Source: a virus | Lineage: Duplodnaviria > Heunggongvirae > Uroviricota > Caudoviricetes | Virus record (IMG/VR): IMGVR_UViG_3300021255_002129 | DNA length: 64,000 bases | Reading direction: 5' to 3' (one strand) | Shown here: positions 17,926-58,731 of the stretch, piece by piece | How positions within the stretch are numbered: the stretch's first letter is position 1 | How the letters are laid out: each line of letters opens with the position of its first letter | Translations under genes and position numbers: made by a program | The notes under the pieces: generated by a model | What the model saw: only the letters and a program-made list of their open reading frames with translations | What the model was told of the DNA's origin: nothing | Databases searched by the model: none

Positions 17926-19677
17926 TTAACTTCCTGAGTAAAATACCATTTCCGCAATATTTCTTTTCTTTCTTTTCTTTTTTCTATCTTCTTCTTGTTT
18001 TACATAATACATTCCATATTCAAAAGCAGAAAATTTATCTTTTTTAATTCCTTTATTAGATTGTTTTAAAATAATATTTGTACCTTCATTCTCTTCCACT
18101 AAATTTAACATTTGGTCTTTTAAAATAGTGGTTTGAGTAAAAGGCATAAGCTCTTCTGCTCTTTTATCAGGCGTCATATTTTGTCCTACTTTTGTAGACA
18201 TTAATTTAGTTTTAGCTTGATTTTCATCAATTAAAAATCTAACTTTACCACTATACATTTGAGTTTGAACATAAGTATGAGCTTCAGTATTAATGGCTGC
18301 ATTTGCTTTAATTAAATACATAGCATCATTTTCAACATCAGGACCTTTTATCTTTTTATAAGGCTCTGTAATATCTTCTGATGTTCCACCTGAAACACCA
18401 AAAGCAGGCAAAGCATCTCCAGTTTCTGGGTCTATTTGAACTTTTGTCATAAAATCAATTAAACCAGCACCTAAACCATTAGCATCTATTGCAACTTGTC
18501 TTGCTTTATATTTATAAAATAATCTTTTTATATTAATTGCTTGAACCTCAAAATCTTCAGCCTCATAAGGATATATATTAACAATAGCCTTAAGTGCTGG
18601 ACCTTGAACTTGAGGAGTAACTTTAATTACAACAATTTCGGTAGTACACTTAAAACGTCCAACATCGACTCCAAGCACATAATATTGTGCTTTACTGTTG
18701 CGGCCGCTAGCCTCCCTCTCAGGTTGAAGTAATACACGATGTTGATCAAACTTCTCTGCAGAGAAAAACGCATTTTCCGCATCTCCGCTCCATTCAGATT
18801 CATATTCTCTTGAAAATGAAGCATCATTATAAGTACCATCTAATTTTAATCCTTGAATAAAGTTTTTAGGTTGTAATCCTTCCATAACTGGAATTCTTCA
18901 AGTTCCTCCAAGCATTATAGCTTCTTCAGGATGAATGATTTGTTGTATTAAAATTTGAATTAACTTATCATAAGAGAATGAATTTTTCCAACCCGCAGTA
19001 GTAACATAAATTTGAGATTTGTTTGCAACTTCTTCTTCATGTCTTGAACCGTCTGCAAGACGTCTATCTACAACCATGGTTGGGATAATAACTTCATTTA
19101 ATTGTTGTTGGTCAATCAAAATAACCTCTTCCATTAAACCACCAGTAGCACGTTTACCACGGGAGCTTTGTTGTGCAGCCATAATATCTAACTTACTACC
19201 ATTTTTAAATACATAAGTTACCTCATTTTTTGATGCTTTTGATGCCCCTCTTGACCAATCTATTTCATTTTTAAGACCTGGAATAAGTTTAACTAATTCC
19301 TCAGCTTTTTCACGCGCGATACCTGCCGCTTGTTCCTTACCACCAGTAGTAACAAAGAAATGCGCTCCAGGATATAACACACAACGCAACATTAAAACTA
19401 AAACAGCTAAAAATGATTTAGAATAACCACGAGGAAATGTTGCATAAGCATATTTATGACGCATTACCGCCCTTAAAAATATTCTTTGATAAAAATATAA
19501 TTGAAAATTTTCAGGGTTACTTCCGCATAAAAATTCAATAAACATATCTGGATATTCACGCCAATAAGCAACATATTGTCTAATAATAGGAATTTGACTT
19601 TTGATACGTTCTTCTGATAAACCTATTTTACCATTGGTTCTTGAAGAAGATAGTTCTAATAAATTTGCTAAAGCCAT
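17926..19677 (-). CDS. terL: Terminase large subunit (583 aa, code 4)
   Basis: ATPase half (RGYSKS, GKRATG..MEE, VTTAG) and nuclease half (LGVDVGR, IDANGLG, KDKFSA) fused in frame through TGA at 18898 (LGGT-W-RIPV). Confidence 0.92.
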
Positions 19678-20858
19678 TATTCATCACCTAATTCTTCTTC
19701 ATCTAATTGTTTTTGTTTCTCAATAGCATTATGATATTCTTCAAAGTCGTTATCATCTAATTCCACGTCTTGATCAAAACTCTCTTCCATTTCTTTTTGA
19801 ATTTGAATTTTCTTTAAAGCATCTTCAATTTGTTGACCAAAACCTAAATCTTGAGTAACAAGTTTTTTAACATAATCATTCATATCTTTTAAAGTGGCAT
19901 CTACTTTATCTTGAGGAACATCAGTTACATATCGAGGTATAAAACCGTCTTTCTCACACATAGCAATTAGTTCGCCAACAGAATCAACATATTCGTCTTT
20001 ATCATCCTTATTTTGTGCAGCAGTAAATTTAGCAGATTTTCTTAATTCATTATAAACCTTTGAGAACTTTTGAAATCCTTCCACATCACCGCTATCTATT
20101 GCCTGATTCATTTTTAAATAAGTTTTACAAATTGTAATTAATGTATTTTTTGTATCCGCATCTTGAATGTCAAAAGATTCCATCATTTCTTTATAAACTT
20201 TCTCTAATTCAACTCATTCCGCAGGTTTATATAATCTTCCTCACTTCATAGCAAGATATTTTTTATCATCTTCAGTAAGCTCTTCTCCTAAATCAACTAA
20301 ATCATCTTCAGATATAAAACCACTACCATCTCCAAAAGGATTGTCAACAGCATTAGTAACAATAGGTTGAGCATATAATTGTTCTTGGTTTTGAGTAGAA
20401 GTACTTACTAATGTTCTGTATTGAGCTTCAGTAATTTCTCCGCTATCTAATTGTTCTTTTAAATGTTCTTCATATTTTTCTCTTTCCACTTCGATAGCTT
20501 TCTTTTTTTCTGCGTTTATTGCTTGCAACTTCTCTGAATCTTCCCATCCATAAGGTTTTCATTGTTTTAATTTCATTTTAGATAAATATTTTCCAAATAC
20601 AGACATTCCATCTAATGCTTTTCCTTTTTGTCTTGCATTTTCAAAAGCTCTATCTCTTAAAACATTTCATTCTTCAGGAATATAAGGCAAATCCATATCT
20701 TTTAAAATTCATAAAAAAGTTTCAGGTTCATAGTTATTAATATGCATAGTTAAGCATTTTTTACATAAATCCATACGAGTTCCATTTTTACGAAGATAAA
20801 ATTGCGCTTCTTCATCCATTACCTTACCGCATTTTTGACACGCTTTTAAATTACCCAT
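19677..20858 (-). CDS. Zn-finger protein upstream of terL, possible terminase small subunit (393 aa, code 4)
   Basis: ATG at 20858, CQKC...CKKC motifs; five in-frame TGA (20709, 20667, 20559, 20241, 20214) link track ORFs 20241-20528 and 19677-20186. Confidence 0.7.
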
Positions 20859-20878
20859 TCAATTCAACTCCTTTCTTA

Positions 20879-22000
20879 TTATTTAACTTCTTTAGTCTTT
20901 TTATTTCTACATTGTTTACAAATAGAATAAAATCCATCTTTTGAAGTATTATTTTTTGAAAAAAATCTATTGTGAGCTAATTTAACTTCACCACATCTTG
21001 AACATCTTTTTCATTTACCATATTCTTTATAAGTATAATATCACATTAAATAATCTTCTTTAGCCTTTTCCGCAATCATTTTAGGTATTTTATTACGCCA
21101 TAAAGAAGATAAATATTCAACTGTATAAGTAATACCAAATTCATCATTTAATAATTCTTGTATTTCCGCATTTGATTTACCATCAATTTTATAAATTAAT
21201 AATTTATAATATAGCGGATATTCATCTTTTAAAGCTGCATCTACTAAATTATCTAAATCCTCCATTAAATACCAAAAATCCCAAGAAAATTTTCCTCAAC
21301 AATCTTGTTTTAAAGCAGAATAATTACAAAGTAATGCACAAACATGAGTTGGATTAAAAAAACTAACTGCGCAATCGCTTATAGGTTCTCCTTTTTCATC
21401 TATTGTAATATGTTCATTTAAACTAATTTTTGTTAAGTTTTTTATAGCTGCTCCTGAACTTGTCATAGTAGGTTTATAAGAGTCTTTAATTATATATTGC
21501 TCTTGATGCATTTCTATTAACCATTTTTTTAATTTGTATCTTTTTTTACCAGTAGCTTTCTTTTCCATTTCTTCTACTATTTTTATAGCTTCTTTTAAAT
21601 CTCTTAACGCTTTTATTTCTTCTAAATCTTTATCAGTAATTTCTTTCTTATGAGTTAATAATACATTTTTATCATTATCAATAGCCATACGCCATAAACC
21701 ATCTTCGCCATTTTCTAATGATTCAACAATGCGTTGCATAGATGTCTCTCTTTTGTTGACTGTCACCATTCTATTTTCAGTTAAGATCAACTTCTCTTTC
21801 TTTTCTTCGGGAGTCATTGCGGAAACAATATAATTTGATAATATTTCTATATATTTTTCATTTTTTAATTGTTCTTTTGTTAAAGTAGGTAATAATTCAT
21901 CAACAAATTTAGTACGCTCTTTCGCAGTTTTTAATGAATAATCTAATTTTCTATGTTGTATTACCTCTTCTTCTTGTAATTCTGTTTCCGTAAGAATCAT
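20879..22000 (-). CDS. DNA-binding protein with HTH-like segment and C-terminal CxxC...CxxC (373 aa, code 4)
   Basis: ORFs 21296-22000 and 21041-21265 joined by TGA; continues through TGA at 21041 and 21011 to CSRC...CKQC and TAA. Confidence 0.7.
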
Positions 22001-28507: not shown

Positions 28508-29261
28508 TGACACTAAGCACGTAACCCCGTAAAAGGTTCGTGCGGGTGTCGTTTCCACACAAACCCGACCTCCTCAGCATTTTCACACGAAAAAAGTCGC
28601 ATTTCCGCGATTTTTTATTTTACCCAAAACTTACGAGCGGCTCGTGGGCGCAGGTCACGAGCCGAATTCGCCATTATACCACAGCTTTCGAGTTTTGTCA
28701 AGTGTTTTTTACAAAAAAACTTTTTTTATTTTTTTCACAAAACTGCTTGACAATTTTTTAATAATTTGTTATAATTATAATGTAATAAATGAGAGAGAGT
28801 AAAACAAAAAAAATAAAAATAAAAAAATTAAAAAAAATGCTTGACTTATTTATTAAAAAATGTTATAATTATTATAGAAATAAGGAAATGGCAGTGCCTA
28901 GCCAAGAGCAATAGACTGCAGGGTTCGTCGCTCGGTTCGGAAAAACGAGATAAAGACGTAATGACTATACCAGCCACAAAAGGTAAACATCTTGTATGTG
29001 TACTTATGAATGTGATACAAGAAAAAGGTTGGCAACTCCTACCGAAAAAAAGTTGCAAAAATTTAAAAAATTATTGACTTTTTAAAAATAAAATGATATA
29101 ATTATTATAGAAAAGTTAAGAAAAGGTTATAACATAATCATTAAAAAATTAAAAAACTTTTAAAAAAGTGTTGACAATTAAAAATGATTATGATATAATA
29201 TAAATGTAATAAGAAAAGAAATAACTTATTACAAAGCCAATAAGAAAGGGAGATGATTAAA

Positions 29262-29645
29262 ATGGCTGAAACAAAAAAATTAACAAAGAGAGATTATTTC
29301 GCTCAATTAAAGGAAATAGTAAAGGATAATGCTGAATTAGTAGCATTTATCGACCACGAAGTAGAGTTATTAACTCGTAAAAATAGTGGAAACTCACAAA
29401 CTAAGACTCAAAAAGAAAACGAAGTTGTTTGTGAAATGTTAGTAAATGAGTTAGCAAAAATCGCTAAACCTATCACTATCACTGATTTAATGGCAACAAG
29501 TGAAGTTGTAAAAAATTATGTGTTAGAAAATGGAAATCATTTAACTAACCAAAAAATCAGTGCTTTACTAAAACAATTAGTTGAAAGCAACAAAGTTGTA
29601 AAAGTTACTGATAAGAAAAAATCTTACTTCTCAGTAAGTGAATAA
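29262..29645 (+). CDS. Winged-helix-like small protein, paralog family A
   Basis: TKTQKENE..ITITDL..QKISALLKQLV..KKKSYFS. Confidence 0.75.
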   Translation: MAETKKLTKRDYFAQLKEIVKDNAELVAFIDHEVELLTRKNSGNSQTKTQKENEVVCEMLVNELAKIAKPITITDLMATSEVVKNYVLENGNHLTNQKISALLKQLVESNKVVKVTDKKKSYFSVSE

Positions 29646-30320
29646 GATTTGGTAAGGTCAAACCTTACCAAGAGTTTACAAAAATACTTGTAAACTCTTG
29701 GTAGGGCTTGGGAAACCTACTGGGTTATAATGTATTCGCCCATTAACCAAAAGCGTTGCGAAAAGTGTTTTACACCTAGTAGACGCTAGAAATACATCGA
29801 GGTTTACTTGTTCCCTATCGTTAGTGAATGAAACAAGTGTAAAAAATTTGACATCCCAAGTGTCAAATTTTTTATTTGACATTTACTTGACGGCTCGCGA
29901 CTGGCCGCCGCGAGCCGAAAATTTTATTATACCACATCTTTGGTATTTTGTCAAGAGAAAAATGAAATTTTTACATAATTTTACATTTCCCAAAACCTTG
30001 ATCCTGATCTGACACGCCAGGGCGCGTTGTTAGAAAAACACTGATTAAAAAAATTTAAAAATTTTTTAAAAAACTATTGACTTATTTTTTTATTTATAGT
30101 ATAATTAAAGTGTAATAAGAAAGGAGAAGAAAAGCAAAAAATAATTTAAAAAATATTTTAAAAAACTGTTGACTTTTAAAAAGTATTATGTTATAATTAT
30201 AATGTAATAAGAAAGGAAAGGCAATAGCAAATAAAAATATTTAAAAAAATTAAAAAAATTGCTTGACTTTCTAATTACAATATGATATAATTAATATGTA
30301 AGTGAAAGGAGATTGATAAT

Positions 30321-30698
30321 ATGGAAAAAAGACTTACAAAAAAAGATTATTTTGAAATGATTAAGGGGGTATGTGCTGATAGAACTGATATCGTTGATTT
30401 CTGCAACCACGAAATAGAATTGCTATCACGCAAAAACTCAAAGAGTGGGGCAACTAAAACTCAAAAAGAAAATGAAATAGTTGCAAATATGCTTGTTGAA
30501 GAACTTGCTAAAATTGGTAAACCAATTACAATTACTGACTTAATGAATACAAGTGAAATTGTCAAAGGTTATACACTTGAAAATGGAAACAACTTGACAA
30601 ATCAAAAGATAAGTGCTATCTTTAAACAACTTGTAGAAAATCAAAAAATTGTCAAAGTAGTTGACAAGAAAAAATCTTATTTCTCAATAGGGGAATAA
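30321..30698 (+). CDS. Paralog family A protein
   Basis: Clearly similar to 29262-29645 along its length. Confidence 0.75.
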   Translation: MEKRLTKKDYFEMIKGVCADRTDIVDFCNHEIELLSRKNSKSGATKTQKENEIVANMLVEELAKIGKPITITDLMNTSEIVKGYTLENGNNLTNQKISAIFKQLVENQKIVKVVDKKKSYFSIGE

Positions 30699-30989
30699 GA
30701 TATGCGGAAATAGTCGGTTAGTGGCAACATTAACCGACCACCGCAAAATCAATAAGAGATACTTCTTATTGAAATATTTTAAAAATAAAATATTTGAATA
30801 AGGAGTTGTGTTTTGGTAGTTTCGTTCTCCCTCATGGCTATAAAAAAAGATAACAAATTAAGTTTTGTTGCCCAATGTAAAAAAAATCTTCAAAACTACT
30901 TTTATCTCTTGTTGAAAAAAGTAAAAAAAGTATTGACTTAATAATAATAGTATGGTATAATTAAAATGTAATAAGGAAAGGGTGATATT

Positions 30990-31424
30990 ATGAAAGATTA
31001 CAAAGTTAATGGAAAAGTTATTGAAATGATACTTGAAAATGGAAAAGTTGTTAAGTGTGCTACTGAATGGGTAGAAAAAACAATGAAAATACTTGAAACT
31101 GATATGGAAGATGTCCTTCTAATGTGGCTTGAAGATAATGACTACATTGTAAATGAAGAACAAGAAGAACTTGACAAACAAGCAAAGGGAAAAGTTAAAC
31201 TTGTTGCAAAAACTGAAAAACCAGTCAAAAAAACACCAAAAGAAAGAGTGCAAAAAGAAAACCCTACAAAAGAGTTAATTATACAAACTATTTACAATGC
31301 TTTACAACAAATTGACAATATTTCAAGTGTAAATGTTGAAAACAAAGCAAAATTGATTACATTTGAATTAAATAATGAGCAATTCAAGATTGATTTAATC
31401 CAAAAACGCAAACCAAAGGCGTAA
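30990..31424 (+). CDS. Hypothetical protein, paralog family B
   Basis: WLED..ENPTKE..FKIDLIQKRKPKA, shared with 34071-34517. Confidence 0.75.
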   Translation: MKDYKVNGKVIEMILENGKVVKCATEWVEKTMKILETDMEDVLLMWLEDNDYIVNEEQEELDKQAKGKVKLVAKTEKPVKKTPKERVQKENPTKELIIQTIYNALQQIDNISSVNVENKAKLITFELNNEQFKIDLIQKRKPKA

Positions 31425-34070: not shown

Positions 34071-34517
34071 TTAGGCTTTTGGTTTTCTTCTCTGTATTAA
34101 ATCAATCTTGAAACTTTCATTGTTTAGCTCAAAAGTAATAAGTTTTCCTTTGTTTTCTACTACTATATTAGTAGTTCCCTCAATAGCCTCAATACATTTA
34201 AAAATTTCTGATATAACCATTTCTTTTGTTGGATTTTCTTTTACCGTTCTAACGACTTTTTTCTTTTCTTTTGCACCGTCCCTGATACCTTTTCTAGCTG
34301 CGGCAAGTGATTTATTTTCTTTTGCGGCTGCACATAACTCTTCTTGTTCTTCGTTTTCAAGATAGCCTTCATCTTCAAGCCAAGTTAAAACTGCTTCGTC
34401 CATATCAATATCTAATCTTGTACACATATTTTCAAGATAGCTAGTCATAGCCTTTACAACTTTTCCGTTTTCAAGAGTAATATCAACTACTTTTCCATTG
34501 ATTACATAATTTTCCAT
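34071..34517 (-). CDS. Paralog family B protein
   Basis: Similar to 30990-31424. Confidence 0.75.
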   Translation of the reverse strand: MENYVINGKVVDITLENGKVVKAMTSYLENMCTRLDIDMDEAVLTWLEDEGYLENEEQEELCAAAKENKSLAAARKGIRDGAKEKKKVVRTVKENPTKEMVISEIFKCIEAIEGTTNIVVENKGKLITFELNNESFKIDLIQRRKPKA

Positions 34518-34719
34518 ATTATCCACCTTCCCTTTCTTAAACAATATTTTAATTATTTTTTATTTTATATATTTATTATAACAAATTTTTTTAATTTTGT
34601 CAATGAAAAATCGTAAAATCTTTTGCGGGATCCGGTTGAAGATGGTTTGATCTGGATCATATGTCCGGAACTCGATTGCCGCATATGCAAACAAAAAAGC
34701 AACCATATGGTTGCTTATA

Positions 34720-35082
34720 TTATTCTGCTATTGAGAAGTATGCTTTTTTCTTATCTTCAGTTCTAGTAACTCTTCCAGCATCAACTAATTTCTTAACTAA
34801 TGCAGATACTTTTTGTGCTGATTTGATTTCATCACTTTCAACTGCTTTGAATAATTCAGTTACAGTTACTGGATGTCCAGCATTAGCAATTCCTTCAAAT
34901 ACAACTTCAACTAATTTCTCGTTTTCTTTTTGAGTTTTAGTTTGTCCATTTCTTTTCTTAGATACTAACTCAATTTCATGATTTAAGAATTCTACTACTG
35001 CATCAGTATCTTCGATATTAGCTCCTTCTACGATTTCAATTAATCTTCCAAACATTTCTTTTTTAGTCATTTTCTTTTCCAT
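34720..35082 (-). CDS. Paralog family A protein
   Basis: MEKKMTKKE..TKTQKENE..QKVSALVKKLV..KKKAYFSIAE; GAGGTG RBS supports the ATG at 35082. Confidence 0.75.
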   Translation of the reverse strand: MEKKMTKKEMFGRLIEIVEGANIEDTDAVVEFLNHEIELVSKKRNGQTKTQKENEKLVEVVFEGIANAGHPVTVTELFKAVESDEIKSAQKVSALVKKLVDAGRVTRTEDKKKAYFSIAE

Positions 35083-36009
35083 TATTATCACCTCATTTAA
35101 CCTTTCTTTTATTTTATTATTTCTATTTAAACACTTTATAGTGTTGAGAAGATTTAGTGAAGCTCTTTCGCTTATAAGAAACCCCTGCGGCAATCGCTAG
35201 GATTAAGAAGAACAGCCTCGTCACTAAGGATTTTTCACTTATGGCTACGACTCTTTGGTCTACCAGCCTTAGTAAGTTTCATAAACTATTTTTCTTTCTT
35301 TTTCTATATATATTATATAATAATTTTTTAATAAAATCAATAGAGTTTTTATTAAACTCTTCTTAAAAATACTATTGCCGCACCTCATCTATCTATGCAC
35401 TCTCTACCAAATCTTACGCCCATAGCGGCGTCTTTGTAGACTTAATGTCCATATATTAACGACTATATACTTCGCGGCGGTTCGTTATACTTATCAACAC
35501 TTTACATAAGTCTCACCACCGACAATAGTATCTTTAAGAAAAGTTTAATTTTCTTAACTTTTCTATATATATTATATAATAATTTTTATAAATTATCAAT
35601 TAAAATTTATTGGCTTGTTCTCATGAAACCTATTAATGACCATCCGTTGGAACATCTATAGCTGTCTTACCCAACGCCCGCATATCTTAGAGAACTAACT
35701 TAGCGGAGGCAGCACTCTCATTCCTATTATAATTATACTTATCATTATTTTTTAGATAAGCAATGAGATTAAGTTTAATACCTTTTGTTAAACACGTGAC
35801 CTTACCTTTTCGTTCTTCCCGTACCAATATTAATTATTTTTAGGAAAGGGCGGCTATTCTTTACTTTATTAAATAGTATTTCAACCGTAGCCAACGGATA
35901 CTCACACTTTCGCTAGCAGTGAGTCGCATTATATTTAACTCTTGTAAATAATGATTACTTTTCTTATTTACATATATATTATATTATATTTTTTTATAAA
36001 AATCAATAT

Positions 36010-39965: not shown

Positions 39966-40763
39966 TTAGTCATCTGATTCTGGATATACTAACCTATTTA
40001 TATAATCTCTATTTTCAGTAAATATAGGTGTTAACTCATCTATAAACCATTTACCTTCATTATCTTTAATTGCGGCGATCCCGCGTTTTTCATTTGTTTT
40101 ATAATCATTCCAATTGACATTTTTTTCAGTAAGCATTTTGTTTTGTAATTCTTTTGTCCCAACCCCTTGCAATTCTTTATGAGAATATAATGATTGAGCA
40201 ACAGATAAAATACTATTTCTAGTTGCATCTTGTTGACGCCATATTAAATTATTTATTACTTCATGAATTGGAATATTAAATGCCCTTGCATCAAAATTTG
40301 CTTTCCATTTTTTATCAATTAGTAAATGCATTTTTTCTAAACATTTTTCTTGTTTAAATAATTGGTCATTCCAATAATATTTTTGAGCATCAACTTCCAA
40401 CTCATCAATTTCTTCATGTAGCGCTTTTTCGAATGCGGAAGTTGCAATGCTTGCAGCAACAGAACACATTTTTTGAACTTGATTATCAAACCATGCCATG
40501 CTTTCTATTCTTTGATAATCTACTAATACAAGAGTAATCTCATCAGATTGAGTATAACCTAATACACACCCCTGAGTTTGTTTACAAAGTGCTAACATTG
40601 TTTTTTGCATTATATGCATCAAATTTCTATCAAAAGGTCGATCTAATCCTCTTGTCCAAGTATGAAATGCTTTTCCATCCAAACGAATAATTACAGGAAC
40701 TTTACGAAGCAATCTTGTGCGGGATTGCATTTCATATTCTTTCATTCTTTCTCCAAGTGTCAT
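39966..40763 (-). CDS. thg1: tRNA(His) guanylyltransferase Thg1-like protein
   Basis: IRLDGKAFH, YTQSDEI, FDARAF, WRQQDATRNSI, KRG motifs. Confidence 0.92.
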   Translation of the reverse strand: MTLGERMKEYEMQSRTRLLRKVPVIIRLDGKAFHTWTRGLDRPFDRNLMHIMQKTMLALCKQTQGCVLGYTQSDEITLVLVDYQRIESMAWFDNQVQKMCSVAASIATSAFEKALHEEIDELEVDAQKYYWNDQLFKQEKCLEKMHLLIDKKWKANFDARAFNIPIHEVINNLIWRQQDATRNSILSVAQSLYSHKELQGVGTKELQNKMLTEKNVNWNDYKTNEKRGIAAIKDNEGKWFIDELTPIFTENRDYINRLVYPESDD

Positions 40764-40775
40764 TATTATCACTCC

Positions 40776-44286: not shown

Positions 44287-45801
44287 TTATTTAACTAAAG
44301 AATATCTTTCGCTATTTAACTTGTCTAACATAAGTTGAATTCCACTTTTACCAGTTATAACAGTTTGGAAAATTACGGGTGAACATCCTGATACAAAAGT
44401 TACATCTTTATTGTCTGGGTCATCTAAAATGTTGTTATGGCGAGCACTACAATTCCAGTATACTAATTTTGGCATTTTTACTCCTACCATTGCCCATTGA
44501 TTTCTAATAGCTTCCATTTCAGTGTTTCTTCTATGAGCATCTCTCCAATAAGATCCGCGATCAATTTCCATATCTGAAATTACAACAAGTTGTTCTGGCA
44601 TATCTTCAGGTTTAACCTTACCGCTTGTATACATATTAAGTAACATATCAAATACCGCTTTTAAGTCTGTATTTTCACAAAGGTTTTGTTGATATATTCT
44701 TTTAACTTTATCACAAAAGTCTATTCCTTCAACTTCAATTAATTGAGGTCTACTTGAGAAACTAATGAAATAATTTTTAAAAGGTTCTCCAATTCTTTCT
44801 GCACAATACATACCAAGTGAAATTGCTACATCAATAGGTTTAACACTTGTGCCATATGAACTATCCATTGAACCAGATGTATCTACTACACACATCATTT
44901 TACAAGGTTTACCTTCTAAATAATCTTTTTGATTAGCCCAATATTTATTAAGAACTTCTCTTTCTATTTCTTCTAAATCTGTATGTCCCCAATAATCAAG
45001 AGTGTCGGTAACCTTTTTAACAATTTCATATGGATAAAGTGTTGCCGCATTTACTTTAGTTTCTTTACTATTAATAAATGCCTCGTATTTATCTTTAATT
45101 AAGTCATTATGAGCAAACGCATTTCTATAAATTAAACCTGCTTTACTTGGTAGTTTTGCAAATTCAATTTCTTCCCATCTGCCTTCTGACATAAGTTTTT
45201 CTACAATATTAATTCTTGTACGCAAAGCTGATAAAATTTTACGATATTTTTTATGAGAATATCCAAGAGCAATTCTGGTTTGATTAGCTAAATATTTTGT
45301 ATCTTTTGCAGAAGCATTTTCTGATTTTAGCCACTTACCAAGTAAAGATACGCCCTCTTTTTCTCCTTCTTTTAATGACATTAAATCTTTATTTAATTGA
45401 CATTGAATTACATCAAAAGCATCTGTTCTTAATTCAGTTCCTTCTACGCAGTATAGGTCATCCCATCTACCATATTCAGGAATATTGTCTAAGTTTCTAA
45501 ATGCTAATTCTGGATAATTTTTTGCTAACCATTTAAAGCACACACGGAAAAATCTTCTCTCTCCTTGTCCGCCTCTTATATCACGAAGATAGAATAAACA
45601 TTTTAAAGCAAGTTCTTCATTTTCTTCAAGAGCCTTCTTAAAAAGTAATATACAATCTTCATCACTGCGGCTACGGTATGCTCCACCAAGTGCGAACATA
45701 TCATACACTGCATCTAGAGTTGACTTATGAGTAATTCCGCCATTTTCAGTTTCTGTATAATTCATATCTCTTTTCATACTATCTAAAAAAGTATTTTCCA
45801 T
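44287..45801 (-). CDS. DUF2828-family protein (TROVE/Ro60-like helical region plus vWA domain)
   Basis: TENG, RDIRGGQGER, YGRWDD, KWLKSE, DTSGSM (MIDAS), ISDME, YWN motifs. Confidence 0.85.
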   Translation of the reverse strand: MENTFLDSMKRDMNYTETENGGITHKSTLDAVYDMFALGGAYRSRSDEDCILLFKKALEENEELALKCLFYLRDIRGGQGERRFFRVCFKWLAKNYPELAFRNLDNIPEYGRWDDLYCVEGTELRTDAFDVIQCQLNKDLMSLKEGEKEGVSLLGKWLKSENASAKDTKYLANQTRIALGYSHKKYRKILSALRTRINIVEKLMSEGRWEEIEFAKLPSKAGLIYRNAFAHNDLIKDKYEAFINSKETKVNAATLYPYEIVKKVTDTLDYWGHTDLEEIEREVLNKYWANQKDYLEGKPCKMMCVVDTSGSMDSSYGTSVKPIDVAISLGMYCAERIGEPFKNYFISFSSRPQLIEVEGIDFCDKVKRIYQQNLCENTDLKAVFDMLLNMYTSGKVKPEDMPEQLVVISDMEIDRGSYWRDAHRRNTEMEAIRNQWAMVGVKMPKLVYWNCSARHNNILDDPDNKDVTFVSGCSPVIFQTVITGKSGIQLMLDKLNSERYSLVK

Positions 45802-52485: not shown

Positions 52486-52567
52486 GGTAGACTGAGAAGG
52501 AGTTGAACCTTCTAACCTCTTAATATAATATTAAGTGTTCTATACCGATTTTGAACTATTCAATCTA
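52486..52567 (-). ncRNA. Degenerate tRNA-like RNA (TATTATA loop)
   Basis: Acceptor, D (GTTC/GAAC), CTTAA/TTAAG and T arm present; non-canonical loop; no CCA. Confidence 0.55.
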
Positions 52568-53081: not shown

Positions 53082-53427
53082 TATAATCAGCTCCTTTATT
53101 CTATAAAAATAGCATCTAGTTAATTTATTACGCACATAATCGAGTTGTGTTAATAAATTAGAACGAATATGCTTTGTGTCCCATTTTAAACATATTCCAA
53201 TACTAGATGCACACGATACTTTATCTCGATATCAGGATGACCTCGTGTATAAGCGGAAGAGCTCGAGATCGATAATATGAGAATTTTCTACTATTTATAA
53301 CAAAGTTTTATCTCTTCCGCTTATATGCGAGTTCATCACTTAATAGCGAGTTCATCACTTAATAGCGACTCCTATCAGCCCTATTGGCAATGACCTCATA
53401 AACGCTACTTTAGATAGGTTTAGGCAC

Positions 53428-53986: not shown

Positions 53987-54060
53987 TGGCAGGAGTGGAA
54001 GGTAACGCTCCCTCGTCTGGAGTTTTGGAGACTCTTATTCTACTATTGAACTACACTCCT
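53987..54060 (-). tRNA. tRNA-Trp(CCA), atypical T-loop
   Basis: AGAGT-CTCCAAA-ACTCC, G73, T-loop AGCGTTA. Confidence 0.85.
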
Positions 54061-54063
54061 ATA

Positions 54064-54159
54064 TGGCACGGGCTCTAGGATTCGAACCCAGACCCCGGGT
54101 TTTGGAGACCCGTCTTTACGGTTTTGAAGACCGCTGTGCTACCGTTACACTAAGCCCGT
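54064..54159 (-). tRNA. tRNA-Trp(TCA) carrying a second, CCA anticodon arm in the variable-arm position
   Basis: ACGGGCT/AGCCCGT-G-CCA; GCGGT-CTTCAAA-ACCGT; AAAGA; CGGGT-CTCCAAA-ACCCG; canonical D and T arms. Confidence 0.85.
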
Positions 54160-54166
54160 ATAAAAA

Positions 54167-54808
54167 TTAAATATATAATCAACAATGTTGGTAAGCAGAT
54201 TTTCTTATTCCATTACAACATTGTGATATATGAGCAGAAATTCCTTTAATATTATCTTTAGATAAATTATTATTAATACAGTATTGGCTTGCTTCTGCTA
54301 CACTTTTAAATCTTTTTATTTCTTGCTTTGTTTTTTTATTTAACATTATTACTTGTTTTTCTTGTGATTTAACACTTTGTATATTTATATCGTTTTGAGA
54401 AATCCTTCCCTTTTCTTTCAAAATCTGAGAAATATATCCTTTATCATGACCAGTTTTATTTGCTATTTCTGTGATATTTAACCCCTTTAAAAACAAATCA
54501 ATAATTACTTCATAATTTATATAAGATTTTCCATCGCCGCCTAAAGTTGCATTATAACCATTTTCAAAAGAATTATAATATTTAATTCAATATTTTTCTC
54601 TTTCTTCTAAATTATTACACTCTTCTATTTTTTCTATTGAAAAATGTTCTATTCCATATTTATTCATAGCTTTATATAAGGGTCTATTTTCATAACCTTT
54701 TTTACTATCTTGACAATGTTCTTTAAACCTTTTTTCTATATTAAATTCAGTTTTTCCAATATAAATTTTATTATTTATATCGTTGACAATTTTATAAATA
54801 TATCCCAT
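54167..54808 (-). CDS. GIY-YIG homing endonuclease with NUMOD1-like C-terminus (213 aa, code 4)
   Basis: GYIYKI..YIGKT..R.KEH; REKY-W(TGA)-IKYYNSFENGYNATLGGDG joins two track ORFs. Confidence 0.88.
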
Positions 54809-57437: not shown

Positions 57438-57512
57438 TGGTACGCTCGCAGGGATTTGAACCCCGATAACACGGATATAAGCCGTGCGCCCTAACCATTA
57501 GACGACAAGCGT
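57438..57512 (-). tRNA. tRNA-Ile(TAT)
   Basis: CACGG-CTTATAT-CCGTG, A73, CCA. Confidence 0.88.
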
Positions 57513-58308: not shown

Positions 58309-58731
58309 TGGTGGAGATGGCGGGGTTCGAACCCGCGTCCAAAAATCAACTACTAATTAGAAATCTCATTCTTACCTTACAAGTTTTGTGTATACCGTTC
58401 TATCTATACTCTTTACCATATACAAATCTCAAGAGCAAGTCTATGCAAATAAGTAAGTCATTAAAGGTGGCTGACATAGATAGCTGACCTATAATGGCGG
58501 TCTTTGAATCGTTAATACGACTATGCGTTTCCCTGTCCGCTACTGGTACTTAACATAGAAGTTTCTTAGTCTTACGCAAAGGCTACGCAATTGAATGCGA
58601 ATAAAGATTTAACTTTATTAGAAATTTTTGTAAATAAGTTTCCGTTTATTTTTATTTGTTACCTTTTAACTAACTGCCTAGTACTTGTATTCTAACTTTT
58701 CGCCAACTCCTGTCGAAACCTAAACATCCCC
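58309..58731 (-). ncRNA. ssrA: tmRNA; predicted tag (A)GNLFTKISNKVKSLFAFNCVAFA
   Basis: 5' GGGGATG..GGTTTCGAC, 3' GGTTCGAACCCCGCCATCTCCACCA with G3:U70; tag ORF 58572-58643 after ATAAAC. Confidence 0.92.

What the first reader, a model, noticed from the sequence alone, without database searches (positions are those of the whole stretch)
54064..54159. A tRNA-Trp with two complete anticodon arms (UCA and CCA)
Seen: one 96-nt gene with a perfect acceptor stem, G73-CCA, and normal D and T arms. It holds two tandem 5-bp stem/7-nt loop arms: GCGGT-CT-TCA-AA-ACCGT (54118-54134, canonical position) and CGGGT-CT-CCA-AA-ACCCG (54096-54112, variable-arm position). These are the anticodons for both Trp codons of this genome. 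The stems differ in sequence yet both pair fully, which argues against a fresh neutral duplication. It is the only full-length UGA decoder in the window, lies next to a normal tRNA-Trp(CCA), and is directly downstream of a GIY-YIG gene. Inference: a dual or switchable decoder, an extra CCA arm that helps TrpRS charge the UGA reader, a decoy for anticodon nucleases, or a precursor spliced to one arm. I know of no described equivalent.
Basis: partly seen in the sequence, partly recalled or inferred. Interest (0 to 1): 0.97.

Follow-up and report, generated by a model that had tools for sequence, protein, structure and literature searches.

The report
Phage tRNA with two anticodon arms
A phage that spells some of its tryptophans with the stop codon UGA carries a transfer RNA gene with two anticodon arms, one matching UGA and one copying the ordinary tryptophan anticodon; the second arm is likely the handle by which the host's charging enzyme loads it, which would let a virus change the meaning of a codon without bringing its own enzyme.

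Summary
Confirmed. Window 54064-54159 (minus strand) is a 96-nt 7/5 tRNA with a Trp body (A1-U72, G73), a UCA anticodon arm and a second arm whose loop is a tRNA-Trp CCA anticodon loop. It is no assembly artefact: 14 viral contigs hold the same pattern. In a scan that left the variable region free, 41 of 42 long G73 UCA tRNAs carry the UCCA loop, against 0 of 18 tRNA-Sec. The stems covary, and the loop keeps an ordinary anticodon's distance to the T arm. The window reads TGA as Trp. The design recurs with the second loop matching the amino acid: CUA+YUG (Gln), UCA+UCC (Gly), UAU+GAU (Ile). Two RF2-less bacterial assemblies, one of them shown to be code 4, have it as their only detected UGA reader. 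Best reading (0.7): UCA decodes, CCA is a surrogate identity element for host TrpRS; charging is untested, and single-arm suppressors without a phage TrpRS also exist. This scan noted the Trp, Gln and Ile forms before on other genomes; ten paper searches found no description.

The parts
54064..54159 (-). Two-anticodon tRNA gene, 96 nt, 7/5 cloverleaf plus a fifth arm, encoded CCA end
54153..54159 (-). Acceptor stem 5' strand; A1-U72, G3-C70, G4-C69, G5-C68 (Trp-type body)
   Evidence: identity elements from PMC12135181 and PMC9976931 passages
54136..54150 (-). D arm, 4-bp stem and 7-nt loop of an ordinary (type I) tRNA, not the long D stem of tRNA-Sec
54118..54134 (-). Arm 1: UCA anticodon arm (anticodon at 54125-54127), in canonical position after the D arm; the predicted decoder of UGA
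   Evidence: role inferred
54113..54117 (-). 5-nt linker between the arms; the spacing on this side varies across the family
54096..54112 (-). Arm 2: 5-bp stem with a tRNA-Trp anticodon loop (CCA at 54103-54105), 9 nt from the T stem like an ordinary anticodon loop; the predicted synthetase handle
54092..54095 (-). 4-nt linker equal to the short variable loop of an ordinary tRNA-Trp; its last U can make the 15-48 pair with A15
   Evidence: tertiary pair inferred from standard tRNA structure
54075..54091 (-). T arm, 5-bp stem, canonical loop
54064..54074 (-). Acceptor 3' strand, G73 discriminator (54067) and CCA end (54064-54066)
53987..54060 (-). Neighbouring single-arm tRNA-Trp(CCA), 74 nt, 3 nt downstream, with an aberrant T loop
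   Evidence: missed by ARAGORN
54167..54808 (-). GIY-YIG homing-endonuclease-like gene with 2 in-frame TGA; adjacent but not conserved beside homologs
17926..22000 (-). Example of genes that need UGA read as Trp: terminase large subunit (1 TGA), PHROG 3314 protein (6 TGA), PHROG 5767 protein (3 TGA)

Best explanation
This is a phage tRNA gene with a UCA anticodon arm and a conserved second arm that copies the tryptophan anticodon loop, in a genome that uses TGA at tryptophan positions; the UCA arm likely reads UGA on the ribosome, and the CCA arm likely serves as a surrogate identity element by which the host tryptophanyl-tRNA synthetase charges it. The predicted route: for charging, the CCA arm sits where an ordinary anticodon arm would sit relative to the T arm and acceptor stem; for decoding, the UCA arm stacks under the D stem and the CCA arm projects like a long variable arm. 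No base pair has to break between the two states. In origin the molecule looks like an ordinary tRNA-Trp(CCA) into which a new anticodon arm was inserted between the D arm and the old anticodon arm. Shown: architecture, conservation, covariation, register, TGA=Trp, recurrence with other amino acids. Inferred: decoding by arm 1 (strong), synthetase contact with arm 2 (moderate), the stacking switch (weak).
For: (1) Loop kept, stem free: 41 of 42 long 7/5 G73 UCA tRNAs carry UCCA in a scan that did not constrain the variable region, against 0 of 18 tRNA-Sec. Second-arm stems pair in 93.5% of cells against 54% shuffled, maximum 61% in 2000 shuffles; 3 of 5 pairs change on both sides in a 13-row alignment. 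(2) Register: loop to T stem is 9 nt in 42 of 55 (8-10 in 54), as in 31 of 32 ordinary tRNA-Trp, while the 5' spacing spreads over 5-15 nt. (3) The amino acid follows the second loop. CUA suppressors: 52 of 65 long-arm ones carry a YUG (Gln) loop, 9 nt from the T stem in 42, and 5 of 5 such phages sampled read through TAG. Gly-body UCA tRNAs carry UCC/ACC loops, and the one such genome tested has TGA at Gly-like positions. UAU tRNAs: 32 of 41 carry a GAU (Ile) loop at 9-10 nt. The anticodon is an identity element for TrpRS, GlnRS and GlyRS. (4) Window TGA aligns to TGG in 16 of 24 positions on real genes, like window TGG (72 of 112 to TGG or TGA). (5) All 14 other Trp-type phage records sampled gain more coding cover from reading TGA than TAG; no single-arm UCA tRNA was found in 25 such records (3 pattern hits were a tRNA-Leu(CAA), and two spans too short for a tRNA). 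(6) TrpRS is in 0 of 30 two-arm records and 3 of 15 single-arm records (Fisher p 0.032). (7) Two bacterial assemblies with one release factor have this tRNA as the only UCA tRNA detected; one of them, G095, was tested and is code 4. (8) A single-arm G73 phage tRNA(UCA) was not charged by E. coli enzymes without its own TrpRS (bioRxiv 10.1101/2025.10.30.685624).
Against: No charging, structure or mature-RNA data. The arm is not required in general: complete record G040 is TGA-recoded, has a single-arm UCA tRNA and no TrpRS, and assembly G267, a relative of the two-arm cells, has one release factor and a single-arm UCA tRNA. The TrpRS contrast is weak among near-complete records (0 of 13 against 2 of 6, p 0.088), and records are related. 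A structure paper states that E. coli TrpRS need not tell C34 from U34 (PMC12135181); 9 of 31 phage UCA tRNAs were strongly active in E. coli extract and 13 of 13 tested inserted Trp, with architectures I could not see. E. coli GlnRS accepts CUA, so the Gln form may tune rather than enable charging. In about half the family the second stem runs to 6-7 pairs, so the geometry of a swap is not uniform. Two G73 members lack a clean arm (L081, L270). The host and its TrpRS are unknown.
Confidence: 0.7

Rival explanations
1. The second loop is read by another host factor that measures anticodon-to-elbow distance, most plausibly a T-box riboswitch, so that the tRNA would raise host trpS or trp expression while it decodes UGA.
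For: A T-box would need the same fixed register. The window looks like a phage of low-GC Firmicutes, where T-boxes control synthetase genes (recalled, not tested).
Against: The design also occurs in a contig binned to Parabacteroides and on a Riemerella chromosome, in a phylum where I recall no T-boxes. It covers four amino acids, each with anticodon-dependent synthetases. Ile-type loops mostly have A33.
Confidence: 0.08
2. Dual or switchable decoder: either arm can enter the ribosomal A site, reading UGA or UGG.
For: In this window the second loop is a perfect canonical anticodon loop (C32, U33, A37, A38) in canonical register, and the neighbouring tRNA-Trp(CCA) has a damaged T loop.
Against: G32 in 28 of 55 second loops against 0 of 32 ordinary Trp loops and 0 of 57 first arms. 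Ile and Gly second loops mostly lack U33. UCA already wobbles to UGG, and the host supplies tRNA-Trp(CCA).
Confidence: 0.06
3. Decoy or shield against anticodon nucleases that target tRNA-Trp.
For: Phage tRNAs are thought to offset host tRNA cleavage (recalled). The loop copies a natural nuclease substrate.
Against: A cut in the second loop would break the only UGA decoder. A decoy does not need to match the acceptor identity or keep a 9-nt register. The form is kept on a bacterial chromosome among housekeeping genes.
Confidence: 0.06
4. Neutral relic of an anticodon-arm duplication, or a purely structural long variable arm.
For: The arms share 12 of 17 letters in the window; single-arm suppressors exist and work.
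Against: The loop letters are invariant while the stems diverge with compensation across gut and environmental phages, and the design recurs for four amino acids.
Confidence: 0.04
5. Precursor that is spliced or processed to a single-arm tRNA, or a Ser/Sec-type tRNA charged by SerRS through its long arm and G73.
For: Removing either arm leaves a normal 74-nt cloverleaf. A long arm with G73 is the SerRS signature (PMC7609411, PMC5389517), and ARAGORN calls it SeC.
Against: No conserved junction sequence. RNA-run contigs of two studies hold both arms without gaps or joints (contigs cannot show the mature RNA). TGA aligns to Trp, and to Ser in only 1 of 24 positions. The acceptor is 7 bp with an ordinary D arm, unlike tRNA-Sec.
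Confidence: 0.04

Closest known systems
Phage suppressor tRNA(UCA) of TGA-to-Trp recoded gut phages (Borges et al., bioRxiv 10.1101/2021.08.26.457843; passages read)
   Same: UCA anticodon, Trp identity, phage genome with in-frame TGA in packaging and other genes; most such phages lack their own synthetase, and the authors ask how the tRNAs are charged.
   Different: No second anticodon arm appears in the passages seen. Their Jade phages solve charging with a phage TrpRS and RF1; two-arm records lack TrpRS (0 of 30).
AP1 and HF2 phage TrpRS:tRNA(UCA) pairs (bioRxiv 10.1101/2025.10.30.685624; Results parts 1-2 of 3 and passages)
   Same: Natural phage UGA-to-Trp systems, tested in E. coli.
   Different: A dedicated enzyme rather than an RNA handle. 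The text does not mention a second arm; its tRNA table and structure figure are supplements I could not see, and the library may include two-arm tRNAs unremarked.
Bacterial tRNA-Sec and the allo-tRNA / selC* tRNAs (PMC5389517, PMC7609411; passages)
   Same: UCA anticodon, about 95 nt, long variable arm, G73; annotation tools file it here.
   Different: 7/5 acceptor branch, ordinary D arm, fixed 7-nt anticodon-type loop on the extra arm, Trp rather than Ser/Sec/Cys at UGA.
Type II tRNAs (Ser, Leu, Tyr)
   Same: A helix in the variable region that the ribosome tolerates and that some synthetases read (PMC9976931 passages).
   Different: Their arm is read mostly by shape and ends in short loops; here it is a copied anticodon loop at fixed register on a type I body.
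Anticodon mimics read by synthetases: E. coli thrS operator, plant viral tRNA-like structures (PMC9976931 passages)
   Same: A synthetase recognises an anticodon-like loop that does not decode.
   Different: Those are mRNA or viral genome elements; none is a translating tRNA with a separate decoding anticodon.
[quoted passage not shown]
   Same: Solves the same conflict: keep CCA for TrpRS yet read UGA.
   Different: One arm with a loosened stem, not two arms.

Membership tests
Phage opal-suppressor tRNA-Trp(UCA) | UCA anticodon in a canonical 5-bp/7-nt arm | tested here: met
Phage opal-suppressor tRNA-Trp(UCA) | Trp body: G73, A1-U72, 7/5 acceptor branch | tested here: met
   family 1:72 pair is A-U in 45 of 57
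Phage opal-suppressor tRNA-Trp(UCA) | Phage genome with TGA at Trp positions | tested here: met
Phage opal-suppressor tRNA-Trp(UCA) | Expressed, charged with Trp, suppresses UGA | not testable with these tools
   RNA-run contigs of relatives only; indirect support from RF2-less assemblies
Bacterial tRNA-Sec | 8-bp acceptor stem and long D stem with 4-nt loop | tested here: not met
   7-bp acceptor, 4-bp D stem; best Rfam match is the general tRNA family
Bacterial tRNA-Sec | UGA read as Sec at Cys-like positions | tested here: not met
   TGA aligns to Trp
allo-tRNA / selC* tRNA | 8/4 or 9/3 acceptor branch | tested here: not met
   7/5
Type II tRNA-Ser (SerRS substrate) | Ser inserted at the cognate codon | tested here: not met
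   1 of 24 aligned TGA positions is Ser, 16 are Trp
Intron-containing pre-tRNA | Conserved splice junctions and a joined product | tested here: inconclusive
   No conserved junction and no joints in contigs, but contigs cannot show mature tRNA
Jade-type code-change operon (tRNA + TrpRS + RF1) | Phage-encoded TrpRS beside the suppressor | tested here: not met
   0 of 30 two-arm records; RF1-like genes in 2 of 30. The window's own whole genome is not held, so absence there is untested outside these 64 kb

The most novel reading that the evidence does not exclude
A general, undescribed class of two-anticodon tRNAs that split charging from decoding: the old anticodon arm is kept as a handle for the unmodified host synthetase while an inserted arm reads a new codon. 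Phages use it for UGA=Trp, UAG=Gln, UGA=Gly and AUA=Ile, and at least one bacterial lineage that lost RF2 relies on it. A single 96-nt gene is then a portable cassette for changing the genetic code.
Probability: 0.6. Interest if true: 0.95.

Novelty: new variant of a known kind. Interest (0 to 1): 0.88.

Why it matters
It gives a concrete, cheap-to-test answer to an open question stated by the main survey of recoded phages: how suppressor tRNAs get charged when the phage brings no synthetase. It breaks the textbook assumption that the anticodon the synthetase reads is the one the ribosome reads, and so offers an evolutionary path to codon reassignment without synthetase change. It explains a class of false tRNA-Sec annotations in phages and code-4 bacteria. 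For genetic code engineering it suggests a way to give any decoding anticodon the identity of an anticodon-dependent synthetase.

Tried and rejected
Assembly artefact: rejected by 14 contigs with the exact pattern and diverged members in viral, metagenome and genome scans. The likely source run was uninformative: no listed piece spans the gene. Expression: RNA runs X16 and X17 hold relatives with both arms (6 differences over 94 letters), but contigs cannot show strand, ends or a mature RNA and may be DNA; X15 gave nothing. Folding z-score: not significant. Protein-level test of TGA=Trp (5 of 5 columns W in 119 homologs) may be circular, because the database holds code-4 translations; at codon level replaces it. 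My single-arm control set first had 20 records; 5 were tRNA-Leu(CAA) read one base off and were removed. Coding-cover tests are unreliable at GC near or above 50% (G031, G039, G049, G050, G057), so I make no code claim for those. A further 43 mixed records had no TrpRS/TyrRS match, but most are fragments. Comparing TrpRS of a two-arm cell, a single-arm cell and three phages showed no difference I could interpret. A scan for UCG first arms with CCA second arms in viral contigs gave 9 hits, none a convincing example. GenBank phages gave no full-length match to the window tRNA. Automatic sorting of the metagenome sample into Sec and non-Sec was not clean; by eye, 30 ordinary-body entries among 112 distinct ones carry UCCA 8-10 nt from the T stem and the rest look like tRNA-Sec or are truncated. 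ARAGORN inside scripts returned nothing through a usage error and is not used. The primary paper on E. coli tRNA-Trp identity (PMC329181) is not held, so the size of the C34-to-U34 penalty is not sourced.

Full report
Observation. The gene is on the minus strand at 54064-54159. It folds as a 7/5 cloverleaf with a fifth arm: acceptor stem, 4-bp D stem, a UCA arm at 54118-54134, a 5-nt linker, a CCA arm at 54096-54112, a 4-nt linker, T arm, G73 and CCA. ARAGORN labels it tRNA-SeC; Rfam files it under ordinary tRNA at 58.2 bits. Its folding energy alone is unremarkable (z -1.38). It is the only UCA tRNA found in the window. The adjacent tRNA-Trp(CCA) has an aberrant T loop and is missed by ARAGORN. 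The upstream GIY-YIG gene is real but absent upstream of 14 of 14 homologous loci.

Setting. The window is part of a 30% GC tailed phage: terminase, portal and virion genes match PHROGs, and it has a large tRNA array and a tmRNA. Matching runs are animal gut metagenomes. No whole genome is held. Six of 18 long frames need TGA read through, against 0 of 16 for TAG. On real genes, window TGA aligns to TGG in three related phages at 16 of 24 positions (4 Tyr, 2 Leu, 1 Ser, 1 Thr), the same rate as window TGG aligning to TGG or TGA (72 of 112). TGA therefore means Trp, not Ser or Sec.

Not an artefact, and under selection. An exact two-loop pattern hit 14 viral contigs. Because that pattern fixed both loops, I ran a scan that fixed only the UCA loop and the T arm (complete, 117 loci, 105 distinct). 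Of the 79 distinct sequences that passed stem filters, 16 are short single-arm tRNAs, 18 are tRNA-Sec type, and 45 are long with a 7-bp acceptor. The 26 dropped rows include truncated genes, further tRNA-Sec-like rows and tRNA-Leu(CAA) read one base off. Among the 45, 42 have G73 and 41 of these carry UCCA in the extra loop; none of the 18 tRNA-Sec does. Pooling with the window gives 57 distinct G73 members, 55 with an anchorable arm; fixed the UCCA letters, so they inform stems and spacing only. The five stem pairs are paired in 93.5% of cells against 54% after shuffling. A 13-row alignment shows double-sided changes in 3 of 5 pairs of each anticodon arm (the rows were mostly chosen by the two-loop pattern, and one is the single-arm neighbour). 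A metagenome sample gave 30 more ordinary-body entries with the loop at the same place (sorted by eye).

Which arm is the old one. From the second loop to the T stem there are 9 nt in 42 of 55 members and 8-10 in 54; ordinary tRNA-Trp has 9 in 31 of 32. On the 5' side the spacing runs from 5 to 15 nt. The CCA arm thus keeps the place of a normal anticodon arm relative to the T arm and acceptor stem, which is the geometry a synthetase reads, while the UCA arm has the normal connection to the D arm. I infer that a new arm was inserted in front of the old one. Position 32 of the second loop is G in 28 of 55, never in first arms (0 of 57) or ordinary tRNA-Trp (0 of 32), which argues against decoding by the second loop in much of the family; in this window it is a canonical C.

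The amino acid follows the second loop. Long-arm CUA tRNAs: 52 of 65 distinct sequences have a YUG loop, 9 nt from the T stem in 42; 11 of the 13 misses are ordinary Ser/Leu-type arms and two are looser YUG cases. Five of 5 phages with the Gln form read through TAG; I did not test the residue, and TAG=Gln rests on the literature. Three U73 Gly-body UCA tRNAs carry UCC or ACC loops, and complete phage G058 with such a tRNA has TGA at 23 per 1000 codons in Gly-like contexts. Long-arm UAU tRNAs: 32 of 41 have a GAU loop at 9-10 nt, mostly with A33; the Ile lead came from earlier scan notes. Anticodon letters are identity elements for TrpRS, GlnRS and GlyRS (PMC12135181 section 15; PMC9976931 passages); for IleRS this is partly recalled.

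Genome context. All 14 other Trp-type phage records sampled gain more coding cover from TGA than from TAG read-through, weakly in G003, G019 and G012. A pattern for single-arm UCA tRNA found none in 25 two-arm records. TrpRS occurs in 0 of 30 two-arm records and 3 of 15 single-arm records (p 0.032; 0 of 13 against 2 of 6 for near-complete records, p 0.088; records are related, so these are loose figures). In bacteria, assemblies G095 and G264 have one release factor where 21 of 25 small family genomes have two, and the two-arm tRNA is the only UCA tRNA the patterns found in them. G095 is code 4 on 5 of 5 contigs sampled. These assemblies may be incomplete, but the simplest reading is that the two-arm tRNA decodes UGA as Trp in a living cell.

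Against. Nothing here measures charging. The arm is one solution, not a requirement: complete phage G040 is TGA-recoded with a single-arm tRNA and no TrpRS, and relative G267 uses a single-arm tRNA. PMC12135181 says E. coli TrpRS need not discriminate U34 from C34, and 9 of 31 phage UCA tRNAs were strongly active in E. coli extract. On the other side, the single-arm G73 AP1 tRNA needed its own TrpRS. The second arm may therefore raise efficiency in competition with RF2 rather than be essential. How the enzyme reaches the loop is inferred from spacing only.

Mechanism, with status. Shown: two arms, selection on the second loop and its register, TGA=Trp, recurrence across four amino acids. Strongly inferred: the UCA arm decodes. 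Moderately inferred: host TrpRS reads the CCA loop together with G73 and A1-U72 (0.7). Weakly inferred: the two helices exchange stacking under the D stem between charging and decoding. Rivals: T-box or other factor 0.08, dual decoder 0.06, nuclease decoy 0.06, relic 0.04, spliced or Ser/Sec type 0.04.

What is known. It meets the testable features of a phage opal-suppressor tRNA-Trp and fails those of tRNA-Sec, allo-tRNA and tRNA-Ser. Ten searches of the held library found no natural tRNA with two anticodon arms; most subscription journals are not covered. Papers seen: passages of 10.1101/2021.08.26.457843, PMC7609411, PMC12386605, PMC5389517, PMC9976931, PMC8629427, PMC13092985 and PMC10607447; passages and one section of PMC12135181; passages and two of three Results parts of 10.1101/2025.10.30.685624, whose closed supplements list 213 phage suppressor tRNAs and may bear on both novelty and function; passages and a supplement search of PMC13462651. 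Earlier unchecked notes of this scan report the Trp form on five other windows, and the Gln and Ile forms. My reading before the first look-up was already the TrpRS handle at 55%. The notes are not independent support; the counts above are my own.

Verdict. A real, conserved and widespread tRNA architecture: a new variant of the suppressor tRNA kind, whose likely working principle, separate anticodons for charging and for decoding, I could not find in print. Interest 0.88.

Noticed in passing
L821:1471-1662 (G094, record titled Riemerella anatipestifer chromosome): Two long tRNA genes in tandem between a Lon protease-like gene and an RNase III-like gene (names from my reading of the translations): a Gly body with UCA and a UCC second loop, and a Trp body with UCG and a CCA-containing second loop. 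The pair matches the Absconditabacteria code (UGA=Gly, CGA/CGG=Trp, PMC8629427), yet the surrounding 40 kb are standard code. Full-length match in 1 of 121 family genomes searched. Unexplained; it would be a sense-codon case.
   Followed up: partly
L846:4597-4692 (G095) and L851 (G264): Two bacterial assemblies (G095 titled Phoenicibacter sp.; 2 of 301 family genomes) carry the two-arm UCA/CCA tRNA and have a single release factor. In G095 it lies among housekeeping genes and all 5 contigs sampled are code 4. Relative G267 has one release factor and a single-arm UCA tRNA. PMC13462651 infers two separate reassignments in this family; the two tRNA forms may mark them.
   Followed up: partly
L1006:514-679 (phage phAss-1, OQ749652): A single-arm CUA suppressor sits next to an 88-nt CUA suppressor with a CUG second loop; the genome paper (PMC10607447, passages) does not mention the structure.
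   Followed up: partly
L759:6383-6476 (G058): Complete 75-kb phage with TGA at 23 per 1000 codons at Gly-like positions and a Gly-body UCA tRNA whose second loop has UCC with A33.
   Followed up: partly
window 53987-54060 (-): tRNA-Trp(CCA) with a non-canonical T loop and a mismatched top anticodon pair; possibly decaying, or a 4-bp-stem form.
   Followed up: no
window 52489-52565 (-): Weak tRNA-like gene (Rfam 29.1 bits) missed by ARAGORN; identity not worked out.
   Followed up: no
window 58309-58731 (-): Phage-encoded tmRNA with a 23-residue tag.
   Followed up: no
window 44287-45801 and 39966-40772 (-): A 504-aa PHROG 850 RNA-binding protein and a tRNA-His guanylyltransferase near the tRNA array.
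   Followed up: no
window 57438-57512 (-): The window's tRNA-Ile(UAU) is single-arm, although two-arm UAU/GAU tRNAs are common in other phages.
   Followed up: partly
window 29253-31424 and 34071-35193: Paralogous small genes on opposite strands (130, 125 and 157 aa; 144 and 157 aa) flanking a divergent region; each has several matches in relative G003.
   Followed up: no
window 53150-53370: Short direct repeat (about 20 nt, two copies near 53327-53367) and inverted repeats in a non-coding stretch between tRNA genes; seen by eye.
   Followed up: no
L006, L009, L011: Phages with the two-arm UCA tRNA that also carry a normal-length CUA tRNA.
   Followed up: no
L755, L756 (G015, G012): Two two-arm phages encode a full-length RF1-type release factor (PxT motif) without TrpRS.
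   Followed up: partly
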